Source of the DNA: Escherichia coli | GTDB taxonomy: Bacteria > Pseudomonadota > Gammaproteobacteria > Enterobacterales > Enterobacteriaceae | Assembly (NCBI RefSeq): GCF_003790525.1 | Contig: NZ_CP033635.1 | Length of the DNA stretch: 64,000 nucleotides | Reading direction: 5' to 3' (one strand) | Shown here: in pieces, positions 1,881 through 9,211 of the stretch | Numbering within the stretch: the stretch's first letter is position 1 | Layout of the letters: the number at the start of each line of letters is the position of its first letter | Made by a program: the position numbers and the translations under genes | The notes under the pieces: generated by a model | What the model was told of the DNA's origin: nothing | The model's database searches: none | Seen by the model: the letters and a program-made list of their open reading frames with translations, nothing else

Positions 1881-2828
1881 ATGGAAAACAGTGACGATAT
1901 CCGTTTGATTGTGAAGATTGCCCAACTCTATTACGAACAGGATATGACGCAGGCGCAAATCGCGCGCGAACTGGGTATTTACCGCACCACCATCAGCCGC
2001 TTGCTTAAACGAGGCCGCGATCAGGGAATTGTCACCATCGCCATCAACTATGACTACAACGAAAATCTCTGGCTGGAGCAGCAACTGAAGCAAAAGTTTG
2101 GCCTGAAAGACGTTGTGGTGGTGTCGGGAAATGATGAGGATGAAGAGACTCAACTGGCGATGATGGGGTTACACGGCGCGCAACTGCTGGATCGCTTGCT
2201 GGAACCTGGCGATATTGTCGGTTTTTCCTGGGGCCGCGCGGTGAGCGCACTGGTTGAAAACTTGCCGCAGGCGGGGCAATCGCGGCAGTTAATTTGCGTG
2301 CCGATTATTGGCGGCCCGTCCGGTAAACTCGAAAGCCGCTATCACGTAAACACATTAACCTACAGCGCGGCAGCGAAGCTGAAAGGGGAATCGCATCTCG
2401 CGGATTTTCCGGCTCTGCTGGATAACCCATTAATTCGTAATGGGATCATGCAGTCTCAGCACTTTAAAACCATCTCTGCCTACTGGGATAATCTGGATGT
2501 CGCCCTGGTGGGAATTGGCTCACCGGCCATTCGCGACGGCGCTAACTGGCATGCGTTTTATGGTGGTGAAGAGAGTGACGACCTGAATGCCCGCCAGGTT
2601 GCTGGCGATATTTGCTCGCGCTTTTTTGATATTCACGGCGCAATGGTTGAAACGAATATGAGCGAAAAAACACTCTCTATCGAAATGAATAAATTAAAGC
2701 AGGCACGGTATTCCATTGGCATTGCCATGAGCGAAGAAAAATACAGCGGAATTGTTGGTGCACTGCGTGGAAAATATATTAATTGTCTGGTAACGAATAG
2801 CAGCACAGCTGAACTATTACTGAAATAA
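1881..2828 (+). CDS. sorC: SorC-family transcriptional regulator of the sorbose operon
   Basis: ORF track gives 1797..2828; ATG at 1881 (MENSDDIRLIVKIAQLYYEQDMTQAQIARELGIYRTTISRLL) is preceded by AGGAGG at 1869-1874. HTH plus sugar-binding domain typical of the SorC family; first gene of a sorCDFBAME-ordered cluster. Confidence 0.85.
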   Translation: MENSDDIRLIVKIAQLYYEQDMTQAQIARELGIYRTTISRLLKRGRDQGIVTIAINYDYNENLWLEQQLKQKFGLKDVVVVSGNDEDEETQLAMMGLHGAQLLDRLLEPGDIVGFSWGRAVSALVENLPQAGQSRQLICVPIIGGPSGKLESRYHVNTLTYSAAAKLKGESHLADFPALLDNPLIRNGIMQSQHFKTISAYWDNLDVALVGIGSPAIRDGANWHAFYGGEESDDLNARQVAGDICSRFFDIHGAMVETNMSEKTLSIEMNKLKQARYSIGIAMSEEKYSGIVGALRGKYINCLVTNSSTAELLLK

Positions 2829-2897
2829 AAATCTTCCCGATGTTTACCGTAATAAAAATTACGGCGGGTCCCTATTATCTAAAATCAGGAGTCTGTT

Positions 2898-3704
2898 ATG
2901 CAAACGTGGTTAAATTTGCAGGATAAAATCATTATTGTCACCGGCGGCGCATCCGGTATTGGTCTGGCGATTGTGGATGAATTATTAGCACAAGGCGCGA
3001 ATGTACAGATGGTCGATATTCACGGTGGCGATGGTCAATATGAAAACCATAAAGGTTATCAGTTCTGGCCGACCGATATTTCCAGCGCCAAAGAGGTAAA
3101 TCATACGGTAGCAGAAATTATCCAGCGTTTTGGTCGCATCGACGGTCTGGTCAATAACGCCGGGGTCAATTTCCCGCGTCTGCTGGTCGATGAGAAAGCG
3201 CCTGCCGGGCAGTATGAACTCAACGAAGCGGCATTCGAAAAAATGGTCAATATCAACCAGAAAGGCGTTTTTCTGATGTCGCAGGCGGTGGCGCGACAGA
3301 TGGTCAAACAACATGATGGCGTGATTGTGAATGTTTCCTCAGAAAGTGGGCTGGAAGGCTCAGAAGGCCAAAGCTGTTACGCCGCGACCAAAGCCGCGCT
3401 CAATAGCTTCACGCGCTCCTGGTCGAAAGAGCTGGGTAAGCACGGTATCCGTGTGGTCGGTATCGCGCCGGGGATTCTGGAAAAAACAGGACTGCGTACG
3501 CCGGAATATGAAGAAGCGCTGGCGTGGACGCGCAATATCACCGTCGAGCAGCTGCGTGAAGGCTATACCAAAAACGCCATTCCTATTGGGCGCGCCGGAA
3601 GATTAGCAGAAGTGGCTGATTTTGTTTGTTATCTGCTGTCTGAACGCGCCAGCTATATCACCGGAGTAACCACTAACATTGCGGGCGGCAAAACGCGCGG
3701 CTAA
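2898..3704 (+). CDS. sorD: Short-chain dehydrogenase/reductase, sorbitol-6-phosphate 2-dehydrogenase type
   Basis: 268 aa with the SDR glycine motif TGGASGIGLA and a YxxxK motif (YAATK); position 2 in the sor cluster. Confidence 0.8.
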   Translation: MQTWLNLQDKIIIVTGGASGIGLAIVDELLAQGANVQMVDIHGGDGQYENHKGYQFWPTDISSAKEVNHTVAEIIQRFGRIDGLVNNAGVNFPRLLVDEKAPAGQYELNEAAFEKMVNINQKGVFLMSQAVARQMVKQHDGVIVNVSSESGLEGSEGQSCYAATKAALNSFTRSWSKELGKHGIRVVGIAPGILEKTGLRTPEYEEALAWTRNITVEQLREGYTKNAIPIGRAGRLAEVADFVCYLLSERASYITGVTTNIAGGKTRG

Positions 3705-3713
3705 GGAGGCTTT

Positions 3714-4121
3714 ATGGTCAATGCCATTTTTTGCGCCCACGGCAAATTAGCCTGCGCCATGCTGGAATCGGTTCAGATGGTGTACGGCGATGCCAGGGTC
3801 GAGGCCGTTGAATTTGTGCCCGGCGAGAACGCCGGAGACATTGTGGCAAAGCTGGAGAAGTTAGTGAGCATTCACAATCATGACGAGTGGCTAATCGCCG
3901 TGGATTTACAGTGCGGCAGCCCGTGGAATGCGGCAGCGATGCTTGCGATGCGCAATCCTCGTCTGCGGGTAATCAGCGGCCTTTCTCTGCCGCTGGCGCT
4001 CGAACTGGTTGATAACCAGGACAGCATGAATATTGATGAACTGTGTGAACACCTGACGCAAATCGCAAAGCAAATCTGCGTCGTCTGGAGACAGGTGGCA
4101 ACAGCGGAGGAGGATTTCTGA
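3714..4121 (+). CDS. sorF: PTS mannose/sorbose-family EIIA component
   Basis: 135 aa with N-terminal histidine in the CAHG context typical of mannose-family EIIA; stop overlaps the sorB start (TGATG). Confidence 0.8.
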   Translation: MVNAIFCAHGKLACAMLESVQMVYGDARVEAVEFVPGENAGDIVAKLEKLVSIHNHDEWLIAVDLQCGSPWNAAAMLAMRNPRLRVISGLSLPLALELVDNQDSMNIDELCEHLTQIAKQICVVWRQVATAEEDF

Positions 4122-4615
4122 TGAACATTACGCTCGCCCGCATTGATGACCGCCTGATCCACGGCCAGGTCACTACCGTCTGGTCTAAGGTGGCTAACGC
4201 CCAACGCATTATTATCTGCAATGACGAAGTTTATAACGATGAAGTTCGCCGGACATTATTGCGTCAGGCTGCGCCACCGGGAATGAAGGTTAACGTGGTC
4301 AATATTGAAAAAGCCGTCGCGGTTTATCACAACCCGCAATATCAGGACGAAACCGTTTTTTATCTTTTCACTCGCCCACAAGATGCCTTAGCAATGGTTC
4401 GCCAGGGGGTAAAAATAGGTACCCTGAATATTGGCGGTATGGCCTGGCGTCCTGGTAAGAAACAGTTAACCAAAGCAGTTTCATTAGATGACGATGATAT
4501 TAACGCATTTCATGAGTTAAATAATCTTGGCGTCATACTGGATTTACGCGTCGTAGCGTCAGATCCCTCAATCAATATTATCGACAAAATAAACGAACAG
4601 TTAATCGCAAATTAA
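4121..4615 (+). CDS. sorB: PTS mannose/sorbose-family EIIB component
   Basis: 164 aa with the RIDDRLIHGQV motif characteristic of mannose-family EIIB. Confidence 0.85.
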   Translation: MNITLARIDDRLIHGQVTTVWSKVANAQRIIICNDEVYNDEVRRTLLRQAAPPGMKVNVVNIEKAVAVYHNPQYQDETVFYLFTRPQDALAMVRQGVKIGTLNIGGMAWRPGKKQLTKAVSLDDDDINAFHELNNLGVILDLRVVASDPSINIIDKINEQLIAN

Positions 4616-4680
4616 ATAATAGCGCCTGTGTACATATGCTTTAACAGGCAGGGATGACGACACTTAAAAGGTGACAAATC

Positions 4681-5478
4681 ATGGAAATAAGTACCCTACA
4701 AATTATTGCTATATTTCTTTTTTCCTGTATTGCCGGAATGGGCAGCGTGCTGGATGAATTTCAGACTCATCGTCCGTTAATTGCCTGTACGGTGATTGGT
4801 TTAATTCTCGGTGATTTAAAAACCGGAATTATGCTCGGTGGTACGCTGGAATTGATAGCTCTCGGCTGGATGAACGTCGGCGCGGCGCAATCTCCGGATT
4901 CTGCACTCGCCAGCATAATCTCCGCCATTCTGGTTATCGTTGGTCAGCAAAGCATCGCCACCGGAATCGCCATCGCGTTGCCTGTGGCTGCGGCAGGCCA
5001 GGTGCTGACGGTGTTTGCCCGTACCATCACAGTAGTGTTCCAGCACGCGGCGGATAAAGCAGCAGAAGAGGCGCGGTTTCGCACTCTCGATATTCTGCAT
5101 GTCTCCGCGCTTGGCGTGCAGGCGCTGCGCGTTGCTATTCCGGCACTGATTGTCTCGCTGTTCGTCAGCGCCGATATGGTGAGCAATATGCTGAGCGCCA
5201 TTCCCGAATTTGTGACCCGTGGACTGCAGATTGCTGGCGGTTTTATCGTGGTGGTCGGTTACGCCATGGTGCTTCGCATGATGGGCGTGAAATATTTGAT
5301 GCCTTTCTTTTTCCTCGGTTTCCTCGCAGGTGGCTACCTCGATCTCAGTCTGCTGGCGTTCGGTGGCGTCGGCGTGATCATGGCCCTGCTCTACATCCAG
5401 TTAAATCCACAGTGGCGTAAAGCTGAACCACATCCCCAGACCACCACTATCACCGCCCTTGACCAACTTGATGATTAA
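4681..5478 (+). CDS. sorA: PTS mannose/sorbose-family EIIC component
   Basis: 265-aa hydrophobic multi-pass membrane protein; position and size fit EIIC of the Man family. Confidence 0.8.
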   Translation: MEISTLQIIAIFLFSCIAGMGSVLDEFQTHRPLIACTVIGLILGDLKTGIMLGGTLELIALGWMNVGAAQSPDSALASIISAILVIVGQQSIATGIAIALPVAAAGQVLTVFARTITVVFQHAADKAAEEARFRTLDILHVSALGVQALRVAIPALIVSLFVSADMVSNMLSAIPEFVTRGLQIAGGFIVVVGYAMVLRMMGVKYLMPFFFLGFLAGGYLDLSLLAFGGVGVIMALLYIQLNPQWRKAEPHPQTTTITALDQLDD

Positions 5479-5488
5479 CGGAGCCATC

Positions 5489-6313
5489 ATGGAACAGAGA
5501 AAAATTACACGCAGCGATCTGGTGAGCATGTTTCTGCGCTCCAACCTGCAACAGGCATCCTTTAACTTTGAACGTATTCACGGGCTGGGTTTTTGCTACG
5601 ACATGATCCCCGCCATCAAACGACTTTACCCATTAAAAGAGGATCAGGTTGCGGCGCTCAGGCGACACCTAGTGTTCTTCAATACCACGCCAGCCGTATG
5701 TGGCCCGGTCATCGGCGTCACTGCCGCCATGGAAGAGGCGCGAGCCAACGGCGCGGAAATTGATGACGGTACCATTAACGGCATCAAAGTCGGCCTGATG
5801 GGACCGTTGGCAGGTGTTGGCGATCCACTGGTCTGGGGAACGCTGCGCCCGATTACCGCCGCGCTCGGCGCATCTCTGGCACTTTCGGGCAACATTCTCG
5901 GCCCCCTGCTGTTCTTCTTTATTTTCAATGCAGTACGTCTGGCAATGAAATGGTATGGGCTGCAACTGGGCTTTCGTAAAGGGGTGAATATCGTCAGCGA
6001 TATGGGCGGTAATTTGCTGCAAAAACTGACCGAAGGCGCGTCGATTCTCGGGCTGTTTGTAATGGGCGTACTGGTGACCAAATGGACATCGATCAACGTG
6101 CCGTTAGTGGTTTCACAAACGCCTGCCGCCGATGGTGCCACCGTCACTATGACCGTACAGAACATTCTCGACCAGCTTTGCCCTGGATTGCTGGCGCTCG
6201 GTTTGACGCTGCTGATGGTACGTCTGCTCAACAAAAAAATTAACCCGGTATGGCTGATTTTCGCCCTGTTTGGTTTAGGGATTATCGGTAATGCGCTGGG
6301 CTTCCTGTCCTGA
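5489..6313 (+). CDS. sorM: PTS mannose/sorbose-family EIID component
   Basis: ORF track starts at a TTG (5459); the ATG at 5489 (MEQRKITRSDL...) has ACGGAG 5 nt upstream. Membrane protein resembling the EIID family. Confidence 0.8.
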   Translation: MEQRKITRSDLVSMFLRSNLQQASFNFERIHGLGFCYDMIPAIKRLYPLKEDQVAALRRHLVFFNTTPAVCGPVIGVTAAMEEARANGAEIDDGTINGIKVGLMGPLAGVGDPLVWGTLRPITAALGASLALSGNILGPLLFFFIFNAVRLAMKWYGLQLGFRKGVNIVSDMGGNLLQKLTEGASILGLFVMGVLVTKWTSINVPLVVSQTPAADGATVTMTVQNILDQLCPGLLALGLTLLMVRLLNKKINPVWLIFALFGLGIIGNALGFLS

Positions 6314-6364
6314 TTCTTCGCCCCGGCACGACTGCCGGGGTCATCGCTCAACATGAGGTGGTTT

Positions 6365-7594
6365 ATGAAAACAACAGCTCTGCGTCTTTATGGCAAACGT
6401 GACCTGCGTCTGGAAACCTTTGACCTTCCTGAAATGCAGGAGGATGAAATCCTCGCGACGGTGGTCACTGACAGCCTGTGCCTCTCTTCCTGGAAAGAGG
6501 CCAATCTGGGGGAAAACCATAAAAAAGTACCCGACGATGTGGCGACCAATCCCATCATCATCGGCCACGAATTTTGCGGCGATATTCTGGCCGTGGGTAA
6601 AAAGTGGCAGCACAAATTCCAGCCGGGTCAGCGTTATGTGATTCAGGCCAACCTGCAACTCCCCGACCGCCCGGACTGCCCCGGCTACTCCTTCCCGTGG
6701 GTAGGCGGCGAAGCGACGCATGTGGTTATTCCCAACGAGGTCATGGAACAAGATTGCCTGCTGGCATACGACGGCGAAACCTATTTTGAAGGCTCGCTGG
6801 TTGAACCGCTTTCCTGCGTGATTGGCGCGTTCAACGCCAACTATCATCTTCAGGAAGGTAGTTATAACCACACGATGGGGATTCGCCCGCAAGGGCGCAC
6901 GCTGATCCTCGGCGGCACCGGACCAATGGGACTGTTGGCGATTGATTATGCGCTGCATGGACCCGTTAACCCGTCGCTGCTCGTTATTACCGATACCGAC
7001 AACGACAAATTGAGTTATGCGCGCAAGCACTATCCATCAGAACCGCAAACACTGATTCATTATCTCAATGCCACCGATGCAGCATTTGATACGTTAATGG
7101 CGCTGAGTGGCGGTCACGGCTTCGATGATATTTTCGTCTTTGTGCCTAATGAAGGACTGGTGACTCTCGCCTCTTCCTTGCTGGCGACAGATGGTTGCCT
7201 GAATTTCTTCGCCGGACCGCAGGATAAACATTTCAGCGCGCCAATTAATTTCTACGATGTGCATTATGCATTTACCCACTACGTGGGCACGTCAGGCGGC
7301 AATACCGACGACATGCGCGCGGCGGTCAAACTGATCGAAGAGAAAAAAGTGCAGGCCGCAAAAGTGGTAACACATATTCTTGGGCTGAATGCCGCGGGCG
7401 AAACCACGCTTGAATTGCCTGCCGTCGGCGGCGGGAAAAAACTGGTGTATACCGGGAAATATCTGCCGCTGACATCACTCACGCAGATTCAGGATGAAGA
7501 ACTGGCGGCGATTCTGGCGCGTCATCAGGGAGTCTGGTCCGGCGAGGCGGAGCAGTACCTGCTCGCCCATGCAGAGGCGATTTCCCATGATTAA
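6365..7594 (+). CDS. sorE: Zinc-dependent dehydrogenase, sorbose-1-phosphate reductase type
   Basis: About 409 aa; ATG at 6365 preceded by GAGG; medium-chain dehydrogenase fold (GHEFCGDI zinc-ligand region, GGTGPMG Rossmann motif); last gene of the canonical sorCDFBAME order. Confidence 0.75.
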   Translation: MKTTALRLYGKRDLRLETFDLPEMQEDEILATVVTDSLCLSSWKEANLGENHKKVPDDVATNPIIIGHEFCGDILAVGKKWQHKFQPGQRYVIQANLQLPDRPDCPGYSFPWVGGEATHVVIPNEVMEQDCLLAYDGETYFEGSLVEPLSCVIGAFNANYHLQEGSYNHTMGIRPQGRTLILGGTGPMGLLAIDYALHGPVNPSLLVITDTDNDKLSYARKHYPSEPQTLIHYLNATDAAFDTLMALSGGHGFDDIFVFVPNEGLVTLASSLLATDGCLNFFAGPQDKHFSAPINFYDVHYAFTHYVGTSGGNTDDMRAAVKLIEEKKVQAAKVVTHILGLNAAGETTLELPAVGGGKKLVYTGKYLPLTSLTQIQDEELAAILARHQGVWSGEAEQYLLAHAEAISHD

Positions 7595-8399
7595 TCGCGA
7601 TACTCAACTCTGCATGTCGCTGGCCGGCCGCCCCGGTAACTTCGGCACGCGTTTTCACAATTATCTTTATGAAAAGCTGGGGCTGAATTTCATCTATAAA
7701 GCGTTCACCACCCAGGATATTGCAGCGGCGGTGAAAGGGATTCGCGCGTTGGGTATTCGCGGTTGCGCTGTGTCGATGCCGTTTAAAGAAAGCTGCATGC
7801 CTTTTCTCGACGCGATCGATCCGTCGGCGAAGGTCATTGATTCCGTGAATACCATCGTGAATGACGACGGCAGGCTGACCGGGTTTAACACCGACTATAT
7901 CGCGGTGAAAAGCCTGATTACCCACCACCAGCTCAATACCACCACGCGAGTGATGATTCGCGGCAGTGGCGGCATGGGCAAAGCGGTGATTGCCGCCTTT
8001 CGCGACGCGGGGTTTACGGATGTTATCATTGCCGCCCGCAACCGCGAGAGCGGCCCGGCGCTGGCGAAGCAGTATGGGTTTCAGTGGCAACCGCAGCCGG
8101 AAGGCATCGCCTGCGACATTCTGGTCAACGTGACGCCCGTTGGCATGAGCGGCGGTAAAGAGAGCCATGAGCTGGCCTTCAGCGAAGCGATGGTCTCAAC
8201 GGCAAGCGTCGTTTTTGATGTCGTGGCCTTGCCGCCGGAAACGCCGCTCATTCGCCTGGCGCAACGGCTTGATAAGCAGACGATTAGCGGTGCGGAGGTG
8301 ATTGCTTTACAGGCCGTCGAGCAGTTCGCAATGTATACCGGCGTACGGCCTGATGCGCAACTGATTGCTGAGGCGGCACAATTTGCACGAGAAGGATAA
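7587..8399 (+). CDS. Shikimate/quinate dehydrogenase-family (AroE-like) oxidoreductase, translationally coupled to sorE
   Basis: ATG at 7587 overlaps the sorE stop (ATGATTAA). 270 aa with SDH-family hallmarks: the VSMPFK lysine motif, the NTDY aspartate motif and a GSGGMGKAV nucleotide-binding loop. Not part of the canonical sor operon as I remember it. Confidence 0.7.
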   Translation: MINRDTQLCMSLAGRPGNFGTRFHNYLYEKLGLNFIYKAFTTQDIAAAVKGIRALGIRGCAVSMPFKESCMPFLDAIDPSAKVIDSVNTIVNDDGRLTGFNTDYIAVKSLITHHQLNTTTRVMIRGSGGMGKAVIAAFRDAGFTDVIIAARNRESGPALAKQYGFQWQPQPEGIACDILVNVTPVGMSGGKESHELAFSEAMVSTASVVFDVVALPPETPLIRLAQRLDKQTISGAEVIALQAVEQFAMYTGVRPDAQLIAEAAQFAREG

Positions 8400-8521
8400 G
8401 AAACATCAGCGCCTTGTTTGCCACGCCAGAAGCAATGCGCAACATCGTGAGCCATGTCAGTAAGCGGTTAAAATCACAGTGGTAGCATGGCTCCCGTGAT
8501 TTCTTACTAACCGGAGAAGTA

Positions 8522-9211
8522 ATGGAACTGCTTTTATTGAGTAACTCGACGCTGCCGGGTAAAGCCTGGCTGGAACATGCGCTGCCGCTGATTGCTGAAC
8601 AGTTGCAGGGTCGCCGTTCAGCGGTATTTATTCCTTTCGCTGGCGTAACGCAGACCTGGGATGATTACACAGCGAAAACGGCTGCGGTTCTCGCTCCGCT
8701 GGGTGTTTCTGTCACCGGTATTCATAGCGTTGTCGATCCCGTTGCCGCGATTGAAAATGCTGAGATCGTGATTGTCGGCGGCGGGAATACTTTCCAGTTG
8801 CTGAAACAGTGCCGCGAGCGCGGGCTGCTGGCACCAATTACTGACGTGGTTAAACGTGGCGCGCTGTATATTGGCTGGAGCGCAGGCGCTAACCTTGCTT
8901 GCCCAACCATTCGTACCACCAACGATATGCCGATTGTCGATCCGCAAGGTTTCGATGCGCTGAATCTGTTCCCGTTGCAAATCAACCCGCACTTCACCAA
9001 CGCGCTGCCGGAAGGCCATAAAGGTGAAACGCGTGAGCAGCGTATTCGCGAACTGCTGGTCGTCGCGCCAGAACTCACAATTATTGGTCTACCGGAAGGT
9101 AACTGGATCACGGTGAGTAAAGGTCACGCTACGCTGGGTGGCCCGAACACCACTTATGTGTTTAAGGCTGGTGAAGAAGCGGTTCCGCTGGAAGCGGGTC
9201 ACCGTTTTTAA
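8522..9211 (+). CDS. pepE: Peptidase E (alpha-aspartyl dipeptidase)
   Basis: 229 aa, ATG at 8522 with a GGAGAAG ribosome-binding site; matches PepE as remembered (S51 peptidase). Confidence 0.9.

What the first reader, a model, noticed from the sequence alone, without database searches (positions are those of the whole stretch)
7587..8399. Shikimate-dehydrogenase-family gene translationally coupled to the end of the sor operon
A 270-aa ORF starts at an ATG that overlaps the sorE stop (ATGATTAA), which implies co-transcription and translational coupling with the sorbose genes. The protein has the hallmarks of the AroE/YdiB/SdhL shikimate-quinate dehydrogenase family (VSMPFK lysine motif, NTDY aspartate motif, GSGGMGKAV nucleotide loop), so it is probably catalytically competent. 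The classical sor pathway needs only SorE and SorD, so an additional NAD(P)-dependent dehydrogenase of this family has no assigned role there. It may act on a sugar or polyol phosphate, or mark an undescribed branch of the pathway. This is the most likely place in the window for unassigned biochemistry.
Basis: inference. Interest (0 to 1): 0.6.

Follow-up and report, generated by a model that had tools for sequence, protein, structure and literature searches.

The report
SdhL dehydrogenase gene ending sorbose operon
The ORF is real: it encodes an already annotated enzyme of the SdhL class, whose natural substrate is unknown. It is made together with the L-sorbose genes as an old eighth gene of that operon, which most E. 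coli have since deleted.

Summary
Window 7587-8399 (+) is a 270-aa ORF whose ATG overlaps the sorE stop (ATGATTAA).

- **Identity.** The window is 100% identical to E. coli SMS-3-5, where RefSeq calls the gene 'shikimate 5-dehydrogenase'. It is an orthologue of H. influenzae HI0607/SdhL (PDB 1NPY, E 3e-112). It passes only the SdhL-specific NCBIfam model and fails the AroE and YdiB cut-offs.
- **Active site.** The catalytic Lys67/Asp103 are kept. The three AroE residues that hold the shikimate carboxylate are replaced by Asn18, Gly20 and Ala214, near-invariantly in 81 clade members.
- **Expression.** A 2025 mSystems paper reports sdhL induced by L-sorbose in an ST648 strain (log2FC 6.0 RNA, 6.8 protein).
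- **Evolution.** sorCDFBAME-sdhL is conserved in many enterobacterial genera. 2,644 of 5,426 E. coli genomes carry a 701-bp internal deletion of sdhL and 176 keep it intact. Kluyvera and Pluralibacter deleted the sorbose genes but kept sdhL under purifying selection. Pasteurellaceae have it after cysE.

It is therefore an accessory, separable enzyme, not a core pathway step. The substrate is unknown and probably not shikimate. Already known; moderate interest.

The parts
1881..2828 (+). sorC, SorC/DeoR-type sugar-binding regulator; first gene of the operon
   Evidence: RefSeq CDS in the identical SMS-3-5 locus (window = L001 minus 1701). SorC/DeoR-type NCBIfam matches, below cut-off.
2898..3704 (+). 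sorD, sorbitol-6-phosphate dehydrogenase (SDR family)
   Evidence: NCBIfam NF004817, 501 bits against a cut-off of 304. RefSeq CDS.
3714..6313 (+). sorF, sorB, sorA, sorM: sorbose PTS subunits EIIA, EIIB, EIIC and EIID (3714-4121, 4121-4615, 4681-5478, 5489-6313)
   Evidence: RefSeq annotation of the identical locus. ORFs listed.
6365..7594 (+). sorE, L-sorbose-1-phosphate reductase; its last 8 nt overlap the sdhL start
   Evidence: RefSeq CDS named sorE. Translation. Present in 2,867 of 5,426 E. coli genomes.
7573..7577 (+). AGAGG, probable Shine-Dalgarno for sdhL, lying inside the sorE coding sequence 9 nt before the ATG
   Evidence: Sequence. A GAGG at the same place is kept in Citrobacter, Klebsiella and Raoultella, and in Kluyvera, where the rest of sorE is gone. 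Its function is inferred.
7587..7594 (+). ATGATTAA: sdhL start codon overlapping the sorE stop codon (translational-coupling junction)
   Evidence: The same overlap is seen in Escherichia, Pseudocitrobacter, Klebsiella and Raoultella; Citrobacter has TAA-C-ATG instead.
7587..8399 (+). sdhL: 270-aa SdhL-class (HI0607-type) member of the shikimate dehydrogenase family; eighth and last cistron of the sor operon
   Evidence: RefSeq WP_000610343.1. Induced by L-sorbose at RNA and protein level in ST648 (PMC12817954).
7638..7646 (+). Codons for Asn18-Phe19-Gly20. Asn18 and Gly20 stand where AroE and YdiB have the two serines that hold the shikimate carboxylate
   Evidence: Alignment A3: AroE S14 aligns with N18 and S16 with G20. 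N18 is present in 80 of 81 and G20 in 81 of 81 clade members. The role of the serines is prior knowledge.
7785..7787 (+). Codon of catalytic Lys67
   Evidence: Aligns with AroE K65 and HI0607 K67. Present in 81 of 81. Lys67 of HI0607 is reported as critical for catalysis (PMC2789096).
7893..7895 (+). Codon of catalytic Asp103, followed by the clade-specific Tyr104 (NTDY; AroE and YdiB have NTDG)
   Evidence: D103 in 81 of 81, Y104 in 80 of 81.
7962..7988 (+). GSGGMGKAV dinucleotide-binding loop (residues 126-134). Ala150-Arg151-Asn152 further on aligns with AroE Asn149-Arg150-Thr151
   Evidence: The inference of NADP(H) preference rests on the AroE comparison and on the report that HI0607 uses NADP+ (PMC3089730).
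7645..8345 (+). 701-bp segment of sdhL that is deleted in most sor-positive E. coli
   Evidence: Pairwise alignment with strain IHE3034. The deletion junction is found in 2,644 of 5,426 complete genomes.

Best explanation
Shown: window 7587-8399 is sdhL, the eighth and last cistron of the L-sorbose operon (sorCDFBAME-sdhL). It encodes a catalytically intact member of the SdhL (HI0607-type) class of the shikimate dehydrogenase family.

Shown plus inferred: it is transcribed with the sor genes under SorC control. Translation most likely starts by ribosomes terminating on sorE and re-initiating at the overlapping ATG, so the protein appears when L-sorbose is present.

Shown from comparative data: this arrangement is ancestral for the enterobacterial sor locus. 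The enzyme is accessory, because the core route (PTS to sorbose-1-P, SorE to glucitol-6-P, SorD to fructose-6-P) works without it. Lineages have lost either partner independently.

Inferred mechanism: the enzyme uses its Lys67/Asp103 pair and NADP(H) to interconvert a ring C-OH and C=O on a polyhydroxylated six-membered-ring compound that lacks the shikimate carboxylate, that is, a neutral sugar-like or cyclitol-like substrate. In this operon the best candidate is the pyranose ketose pair L-sorbose / 5-keto-D-fructose.

My probabilities:
- Identity and operon membership: about 0.95.
- Accessory and dispensable for sorbose growth: about 0.85.
- Physiological substrate is not shikimate: about 0.7.
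- Substrate is sorbose-related: about 0.35.
- Substrate is specifically 5-keto-fructose / L-sorbose: about 0.2.
For: Identity:
- NF009202 scores 467 bits against a cut-off of 306, and it is the only SDH-family NCBIfam model passed.
- 1NPY/HI0607 matches at E 2.9e-112 over residues 1-268, 66% identical in A3.
- Pfam finds Shikimate_dh_N and Shikimate_DH.

Operon membership:
- An 8-nt start/stop overlap.
- No convincing terminator between sorE and sdhL; terminator-like hits are at chance level, 15 found against 10 +/- 3.5 expected.
- The junction is conserved across genera.
- sdhL log2FC is 6.01 (RNA) and 6.77 (protein) on L-sorbose, against 5.67 for sorA and sorF (PMC12817954).

Ancestry:
- sorCDFBAME-sdhL is found in Pseudocitrobacter, E. 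albertii, E. whittamii, Citrobacter, the K. oxytoca complex, K. variicola, Raoultella, Enterobacter, Serratia sp. and Entomohabitans.
- In E. coli IHE3034, 58 nt of the 5' end (with CAA to TAA at codon 7) and 54 nt of the 3' end of sdhL remain around a 701-bp deletion.
- That junction is in 2,644 genomes; the gene is intact in 176.

Separability:
- Kluyvera (6 species) has rluF-sorC-sdhL-pepE with only the last ~15 nt of sorE left. Pluralibacter has sdhL preceded by a sorE 3' remnant.
- sdhL dN/dS is 0.05-0.065 at dS about 1 within Kluyvera.
- Kluyvera sorC is intact in 6 of 6 species with dN/dS 0.03-0.13 (0.10-0.13 between the more distant species).
- A strain of ST131, a lineage the paper describes as lacking sdhL, grows on sorbose (PMC12817954).

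Substrate:
- AroE S14, S16 and Y215 become N18, G20 and A214, while T61, K65, N86, D102 and Q244 are kept as S63, K67, N88, D103 and Q242.
- These positions are 80-81 of 81 conserved in the clade.
- Precedent: SDH-family enzymes that reduce the ketose 5-keto-fructose (PDB 7COK; Tatumella KFR at 1,428 U/mg, PMC7954740).
Against: - No enzymology exists for the E. coli protein.
- HI0607 does oxidise shikimate with NADP+ (PMC3089730). That its rate is about 1000-fold below AroE is my recollection of Singh et al. 2005, which I could not read.
- Orthologues 65-68% identical sit in Pasteurellaceae directly after cysE (gap 7-12 nt in 14 of 15 loci) with no sor genes within 10 kb. This argues against a sorbose-specific substrate.
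- Contexts in Pseudomonas, Lautropia, Pantoea and Ewingella are heterogeneous.
- The similarity to 5-ketofructose reductase is weak (62.7 bits against 377 for SdhL), and I could not compare active-site residues with it.
- The roles of AroE S14, S16 and Y215 are taken from prior knowledge, not tested here.
- I could not exclude a sor operon elsewhere in Kluyvera genomes. The only evidence is weak and negative: no SorE cluster is named for Kluyvera.
Confidence: 0.55

Rival explanations
1. The enzyme has a general function unrelated to sorbose, for example acting on a common metabolite or a damaged metabolite. Its place at the end of the sor operon is then a historical accident, kept by inheritance among related genera.
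For: - Pasteurellaceae carry an orthologue after secB-gpsA-cysE.
- Other taxa show unrelated neighbours.
- sdhL is kept under strong purifying selection in Kluyvera and Pluralibacter without sorDFBAME at the locus.
- Most E. coli and E. fergusonii lost it while keeping sor.
- The Yersinia sor-like operon lacks it.
Against: - The start/stop coupling with sorE is kept in about 29 species-level lineages.
- When Kluyvera deleted sorDFBAME it kept exactly the SorC regulator plus sdhL, with the sorE-embedded ribosome-binding site, and sorC stays under purifying selection. This suggests sugar-responsive control still matters.
- A general essential role is hard to square with its loss in most E. coli.
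Confidence: 0.3
2. It is a true, if slow, shikimate / 3-dehydroshikimate dehydrogenase: a third AroE paralogue that supports aromatic amino-acid synthesis during growth on sorbose.
For: - RefSeq names it shikimate 5-dehydrogenase.
- HI0607 oxidises shikimate with NADP+.
- The catalytic dyad and the hydroxyl-binding residues are conserved.
- The mSystems paper groups sdhL with the shikimate pathway and sees aroL and the trp genes up on sorbose.
Against: - All three carboxylate-binding positions of AroE and YdiB are replaced, and replaced near-invariantly.
- It scores below the AroE (165.5 against 200.2) and YdiB (96.5 against 349) cut-offs.
- E. coli K-12, taken as reference, carries both aroE and ydiB. 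That sdhL-bearing strains such as SMS-3-5 also carry them is expected but was not checked here.
- The turnover of HI0607 on shikimate is reported as very low (from memory of Singh 2005).
- aroL and trp are also induced in the ST131 strain, whose lineage is described as lacking sdhL.
Confidence: 0.1
3. It is a decaying or non-functional passenger gene, expressed only through read-through.
For: Deleted in 2,644 E. coli genomes with no known cost. No phenotype is known.
Against: - Intact 270-codon ORFs occur in all 78 loci examined that hold a full copy.
- dN/dS is 0.05-0.16.
- Active-site residues are invariant.
- The protein is detected and strongly induced.
Confidence: 0.03

Closest known systems
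SdhL / HI0607 of Haemophilus influenzae (PDB 1NPY), the 'shikimate dehydrogenase-like' class III of the SDH family
   Same: Full-length orthologue: E 2.9e-112 over residues 1-268, 66% identity in A3. Same length, same N-terminus, same Lys67/Asp103, and same N18, G20, A214 and Y104. Same NCBIfam equivalog, NF009202.
   Different: Genomic setting: HI0607-type genes follow cysE in Pasteurellaceae, whereas this one overlaps sorE and is induced by sorbose. Position 22 is Arg here and Thr in HI0607. The physiological role is unknown for both.
AroE, the biosynthetic NADP-dependent shikimate dehydrogenase (E. coli b3281, PDB 1NYT)
   Same: Same two-domain fold family, catalytic Lys/Asp, Asn/Gln/Ser-Thr hydroxyl ligands, glycine-rich loop and an NADP-type Arg.
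   Different: Only 24% identical. TIGR00507 scores 165.5, below its cut-off of 200.2. S14, S16 and Y215 are replaced by N18, G20 and A214, and NTDG becomes NTDY.
YdiB, the quinate/shikimate dehydrogenase (E. coli b1692, PDB 1NPD/1O9B)
   Same: Same family and same catalytic dyad; 30% identity.
   Different: NF009390 scores 96.5 against a cut-off of 349. YdiB keeps both serines and the tyrosine (mapping table). YdiB sits with aroD and the transporter gene ydiN, not with sugar genes.
5-ketofructose reductases of the SDH family (Gluconobacter KFR, PDB 7COK; Tatumella morbirosei KFR)
   Same: SDH-family enzymes whose real substrate is a ketose ring, not shikimate. 5-keto-fructose is the oxidation product of both D-fructose and L-sorbose, which links the family chemically to sorbose (PMC7954740).
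   Different: Distant: 62.7 bits, E 3e-16, aligned only from residue 35. This is not the same clade. I recall that KFR has an Asn where SDHs have a Ser, but I could not obtain the KFR sequence to test whether that matches Asn18.
Classical sorCDFBAME operon of Klebsiella pneumoniae (seven genes, as described in the 1990s; cited from memory)
   Same: Same seven genes in the same order, with the same regulator, at window 1881-7594.
   Different: An eighth gene follows here. In the genomes I examined, the eight-gene form is the common one in Enterobacteriaceae, including a K. variicola and a genome labelled K. pneumoniae.

Membership tests
SdhL (HI0607-type) class of the shikimate dehydrogenase family | Full-length sequence orthology to HI0607 and a score above the class-specific model cut-off | tested here: met
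   NF009202 scores 467.4 bits against a cut-off of 306, covering residues 1-268. 1NPY matches at E 2.9e-112.
SdhL (HI0607-type) class of the shikimate dehydrogenase family | Catalytic Lys67 / Asp103 pair | tested here: met
   K67 and D103 are present and found in 81 of 81 clade members.
SdhL (HI0607-type) class of the shikimate dehydrogenase family | Kinetic signature: slow NADP+-dependent oxidation of shikimate and no activity on quinate | not testable with these tools
   Needs purified enzyme. The property is known for HI0607 only (for the NADP+/shikimate activity; the rates are from memory of Singh 2005).
Shikimate dehydrogenase superfamily (two-domain SDH fold) | N-terminal substrate-binding domain plus a Rossmann NAD(P)-binding domain with a glycine-rich loop | tested here: met
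   Pfam PF08501 at E 7.7e-18 and PF01488 at E 3e-5. GSGGMG loop present. 40 solved SDH-family chains matched.
AroE (biosynthetic shikimate dehydrogenase) | Score above the AroE equivalog cut-off | tested here: not met
   TIGR00507 scores 165.5 against 200.2. All PRK00258-type models are below cut-off.
AroE (biosynthetic shikimate dehydrogenase) | The two serines and the tyrosine that bind the shikimate carboxylate (E. coli S14, S16, Y215) | tested here: not met
   They are replaced by N18, G20 and A214, which are conserved in 80-81 of 81 clade members.
YdiB (quinate/shikimate dehydrogenase) | Score above the YdiB equivalog cut-off | tested here: not met
   NF009390 scores 96.5 against 349; NF010631 scores 78.4 against 515.
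SDH-family 5-ketofructose reductases (KFR) | Close sequence relationship to 7COK or Tatumella KFR, with the KFR-type substrate pocket | tested here: inconclusive
   Only 62.7 bits to 7COK, so it is not in the same clade. The pocket residues could not be compared because no KFR sequence was obtainable.
sor (L-sorbose) operon | Same strand, no intergenic gap or terminator, and co-induction by L-sorbose | tested here: met
   8-nt overlap. No convincing terminator. Junction conserved across genera. Induction is published for ST648. A transcript spanning the junction has not itself been shown.
sor (L-sorbose) operon | Required for growth on L-sorbose | tested here: not met
   2,644 sor-positive E. 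coli genomes carry a deleted sdhL. A strain of ST131, a lineage described as lacking sdhL, grows on sorbose (PMC12817954).

The most novel reading that the evidence does not exclude
SdhL enzymes are not shikimate enzymes at all. They would be NADP(H)-dependent oxidoreductases of pyranose-ring ketoses. In Enterobacteriaceae, SorC-controlled SdhL would interconvert L-sorbose (or D-fructose) and 5-keto-D-fructose, adding an unrecognised, PTS-independent branch to sorbose metabolism. This would give the SdhL class, orphan since 2005, its physiological substrate. The two-gene sorC-sdhL unit of Kluyvera would be the minimal form of that branch.
Probability: 0.18. Interest if true: 0.6.

Novelty: already known. 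Interest (0 to 1): 0.35.

Why it matters
The SdhL class has had a crystal structure since 2005 but still has no known physiological role.

Three findings together give a concrete, cheap set of experiments that could assign that role:
- In most Enterobacteriaceae the gene is translationally coupled to sorE.
- It is induced about 64-fold by L-sorbose.
- It has lost every carboxylate-binding residue of true shikimate dehydrogenases.

The analysis also corrects two points:
- The RefSeq product name 'shikimate 5-dehydrogenase' probably over-states what is known.
- The gene is not an ST648-specific insertion next to the sor operon, as the 2025 paper describes it. It is the ancestral state, and most E. 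coli lost it through one 701-bp deletion.

If the enzyme proves unrelated to sorbose, the finding is just an annotated accessory gene of modest interest.

Tried and rejected
- **Arg22 as a phosphate or anion ligand, implying a sugar-phosphate substrate.** It looked invariant in my first 15-sequence alignment. Across 81 clade members it is Arg in only 51, and Thr in Pasteurellaceae including HI0607, so I dropped the idea.
- **The Kluyvera sorC-sdhL pair as the ancestral module, with sorDFBAME inserted later.** Rejected. The ~15 nt before the Kluyvera sdhL ATG match the end of sorE, including its GAGGA, and Pluralibacter keeps about 60 nt of the sorE 3' end. These are deletions.
- **Guilt by association outside the sor context.** Neighbours are housekeeping or heterogeneous: secB-gpsA-cysE, udp, rplS/trmD, exbBD, RTX genes, yidA. 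No metabolic partner recurs.
- **Residue-level comparison with 5-ketofructose reductase.** I could not obtain the 7COK sequence, because only the top alignments are printed. The J Bacteriol 2021 paper is not held.
- **Reading Singh et al. 2005 for HI0607 kinetics.** Not held under PMID, DOI or PMC id.
- **Literature on fitness data for sorbose in Klebsiella M5al, or on sorE plus shikimate.** Nothing useful.
- **Foreign origin of the gene.** GC is 0.57, like its neighbours.
- **Antisense ORFs and the upstream in-frame extension 7494-7586.** No family matches.
- **Structure prediction.** Not run, because a solved structure that is 66% identical (A3) already exists.
Full report
**1. The observation**

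The window is 100% identical over 7300-8600 to E. coli SMS-3-5 and many other strains. At 7587 an ATG starts a 270-codon ORF that ends at 8399. The upstream ORF, annotated sorE in RefSeq, stops at TAA 7592-7594. The two genes therefore share ATGATTAA.

The longest ORF in this frame begins at 7494. Three things fix the start at 7587: the residue-1-to-residue-1 alignment with HI0607, the RefSeq call, and the same start in other genera. AGAGG at 7573-7577 lies 9 nt upstream.

Antisense ORFs over the region match no family, and base composition is unremarkable.

**2. What the protein is**

- NCBIfam places it in one model only: NF009202, at 467 bits against a cut-off of 306. AroE (165.5 against 200.2), YdiB (96.5 against 349) and all other SDH models fall below their cut-offs.
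- Pfam finds the SDH substrate-binding and NAD(P)-binding domains.
- The best solved structure is 1NPY, the 'shikimate 5-dehydrogenase-like protein HI0607' of H. influenzae, at E 2.9e-112 over residues 1-268. The next hit is an archaeal AroE at 1e-32.

It is therefore an orthologue of SdhL, the third class of the SDH family (classes summarised in PMC3608921). HI0607 oxidises shikimate with NADP+ (PMC3089730), and its Lys67 is catalytic (PMC2789096). From memory of Singh et al. 2005, which I could not open, its turnover is about 1000-fold below AroE and it does not use quinate. Its physiological role has remained unknown.

**3. Active site**

I aligned the protein with E. coli AroE and YdiB, fetched.

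| AroE residue | SdhL residue | Role |
|---|---|---|
| T61 | S63 | hydroxyl ligand, kept |
| K65 | K67 | catalytic, kept |
| N86 | N88 | hydroxyl ligand, kept |
| D102 | D103 | catalytic, kept |
| Q244 | Q242 | hydroxyl ligand, kept |
| S14 | N18 | carboxylate ligand, replaced |
| S16 | G20 | carboxylate ligand, replaced |
| Y215 | A214 | carboxylate ligand, replaced |
| G103 | Y104 | NTDG becomes NTDY |

The carboxylate-binding role of S14, S16 and Y215 is prior knowledge from AroE and plant SDH complexes.

Across 81 clade sequences these SdhL-specific residues are present in 80-81 of 81. Ala150-Arg151-Asn152 aligns with the NADP-type Asn149-Arg150-Thr151 of AroE.

I infer an active NADP(H)-dependent dehydrogenase whose natural substrate resembles the hydroxylated ring of shikimate but not its carboxylate. 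I first thought Arg22 might bind a phosphate. It is conserved in only 51 of 81 sequences, so I withdrew that idea.

**4. Operon membership**

The gene overlaps sorE. There is no convincing terminator between them, nor a strong one after sdhL: terminator-like hits are at chance level, 15 found against 10 +/- 3.5 expected.

Swiatek et al. 2025 (PMC12817954) grew an ST648 (phylogroup F) strain with L-sorbose. [quoted passage not shown] Co-regulation and translation are therefore experimentally shown. A transcript spanning the junction, and coupling itself, are inferred.

**5. Distribution within E. coli**

| Feature | Complete genomes (of 5,426) |
|---|---|
| sorE present | 2,867 |
| sdhL intact | 176 |
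| sdhL deletion junction | 2,644 |

The intact set includes SMS-3-5, IAI39 and ST648 strains. In the B2 strain IHE3034 the sorE-pepE spacer still contains the first 58 nt of sdhL, with CAA changed to TAA at codon 7, and the last 54 nt. These flank a 701-bp deletion of window 7645-8345. A REP-like insertion follows.

So sdhL is ancestral and was lost once. It is not an ST648-specific insertion as the paper suggests. The paper describes ST131 as lacking sdhL and reports growth of its ST131 strain PBIO729 on sorbose, so the gene is dispensable for the pathway.

**6. Other taxa**

I scanned one genome per species and kept the 80 best loci, then mapped the sor genes.

- **Eight-gene operon.** The full sorCDFBAME-sdhL, with the same or a near-identical junction, is present in Pseudocitrobacter, E. 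albertii, E. whittamii, many Citrobacter, the K. oxytoca complex, Raoultella, Enterobacter spp., a Serratia and Entomohabitans. It is also in a K. variicola and a genome labelled K. pneumoniae.
- **sor without sdhL.** E. fergusonii and a Yersinia sor-like operon lack sdhL.
- **sdhL without sorDFBAME.** Six Kluyvera species have rluF-sorC-sdhL-pepE, with only about 15 nt of sorE (including GAGGA) left before the ATG. Two Pluralibacter have sdhL preceded by a sorE 3' remnant.
- **Selection.** Within Kluyvera, sdhL dN/dS is 0.05-0.065 at dS about 1, as low as in sor-linked lineages. The retained sorC is intact in all six species, with dN/dS 0.03-0.13 (0.10-0.13 between the more distant species).
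- **Caveat.** I could not scan whole Kluyvera genomes for a second sor operon. A SorE homologue list reaching down to 63% identity names no Kluyvera cluster, which is only weak negative evidence.
- **Pasteurellaceae and beyond.** In Pasteurellaceae the orthologue (65-68% identical) follows secB-gpsA-cysE with a 7-12 nt gap in 14 of 15 loci. In Pseudomonas, Lautropia, Pantoea, Ewingella and others the neighbours are unrelated.

**7. Interpretation**

Three facts are firm:
- It is an SdhL-class enzyme.
- It is expressed as the last cistron of the sor operon.
- It is evolutionarily separable from the sorbose catabolic genes in both directions.

The substrate is open. Three observations favour a sugar-related role. 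The coupling to sorE is conserved. Kluyvera retained exactly the sugar-responsive regulator together with sdhL. And the SDH family contains true ketose reductases: 7COK and Tatumella KFR, which acts on 5-keto-fructose at 1,428 U/mg (PMC7954740). The same paper notes that reduction of 5-keto-fructose yields either D-fructose or L-sorbose, so this compound is the obvious candidate.

Against this stand the Pasteurellaceae and other non-sor contexts, and the low similarity to KFR.

I put about 0.35 on a sorbose-related substrate (0.2 on the 5-keto-fructose / L-sorbose pair specifically). I put about 0.3 on a function unrelated to sorbose, about 0.1 on a genuine shikimate role, and very little on a dead gene.

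**8. Verdict**

The feature is already annotated, belongs to a structurally characterised class, and its sorbose induction is published. What this analysis adds:
- the ancestral eight-gene operon;
- the single deletion in most E. coli;
- the reciprocal loss in Kluyvera and Pluralibacter;
- the clade-wide loss of the carboxylate ligands.

It is a reasonable target for enzymology, but not a new kind of system.

Noticed in passing
L002 4363-4507 (E. coli IHE3034, between the sdhL remnant and pepE); no counterpart in window 8415-8441: About 145 bp are inserted in the B2 strain, containing REP/BIME-like sequence (GCCGGATGCGG...CCTACA type, judged by eye). The sorE-pepE spacer therefore differs from the window by both a deletion and an insertion.
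   Followed up: partly
L015 10847-11457; also L019, L026, L035, L054, between sdhL and pepE: A small two-gene cassette on the opposite strand (97 aa and 105 aa, clusters c24 and c25) is inserted between sdhL and pepE in several genera. By eye it resembles a CcdA/CcdB-type toxin-antitoxin pair. It was not run against any library.
   Followed up: no
L005 8780-10005; L008 1517-2772; L006 4068-4870: sorE is split over two reading frames in Escherichia sp. MOD1-EC7003 and in E. albertii NBRC 107761. sorD is split in the E. coli-labelled SCPM-O-B-8794. sdhL is intact in all three. These are draft assemblies, so the splits may be sequencing errors or real decay of the sor genes.
   Followed up: partly
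L087 4547-7251 (Yersinia vastinensis): A sor-like operon (SorC-type regulator, EIIA-D, a SorE homologue at 76%) has no sorD or sdhL. It is followed instead by a DUF1537-type kinase (SBD_N/NBD_C), a class II aldolase and a DeoR regulator. This suggests a different downstream chemistry for the PTS product.
   Followed up: no
L088 4374-4913 (E. fergusonii): After sorE both sdhL and pepE are missing. A DUF2058 gene on the opposite strand lies before yjbB.
   Followed up: no
NZ_AP045174.1 4724823-4725618 (E. coli JNEC-KY178, hit H45): One of the 176 E. coli genomes with an intact sdhL is only 91.1% identical to the window copy. The other 175 are at least 99% identical. This could be a divergent lineage or a recombinant allele.
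   Followed up: no
L080 9051-9788 (Serratia silvae): A SorC-family sugar-binding protein, 55% identical to SorC, lies directly upstream of a distant sdhL (65% identity) with exbBD downstream. It was called here as a 245-aa ORF that lacks the N-terminal DNA-binding part. It may be another decayed sor locus or a separate regulator-sdhL pairing.
   Followed up: partly
L059 991-3971 (Enterobacter soli): A distant sdhL (66% identity) sits between the sugar-phosphatase gene yidA (NF007806, 544 bits) and a 407-aa protein with no NCBIfam match. This is the only non-sor context found with a sugar-related neighbour.
   Followed up: partly
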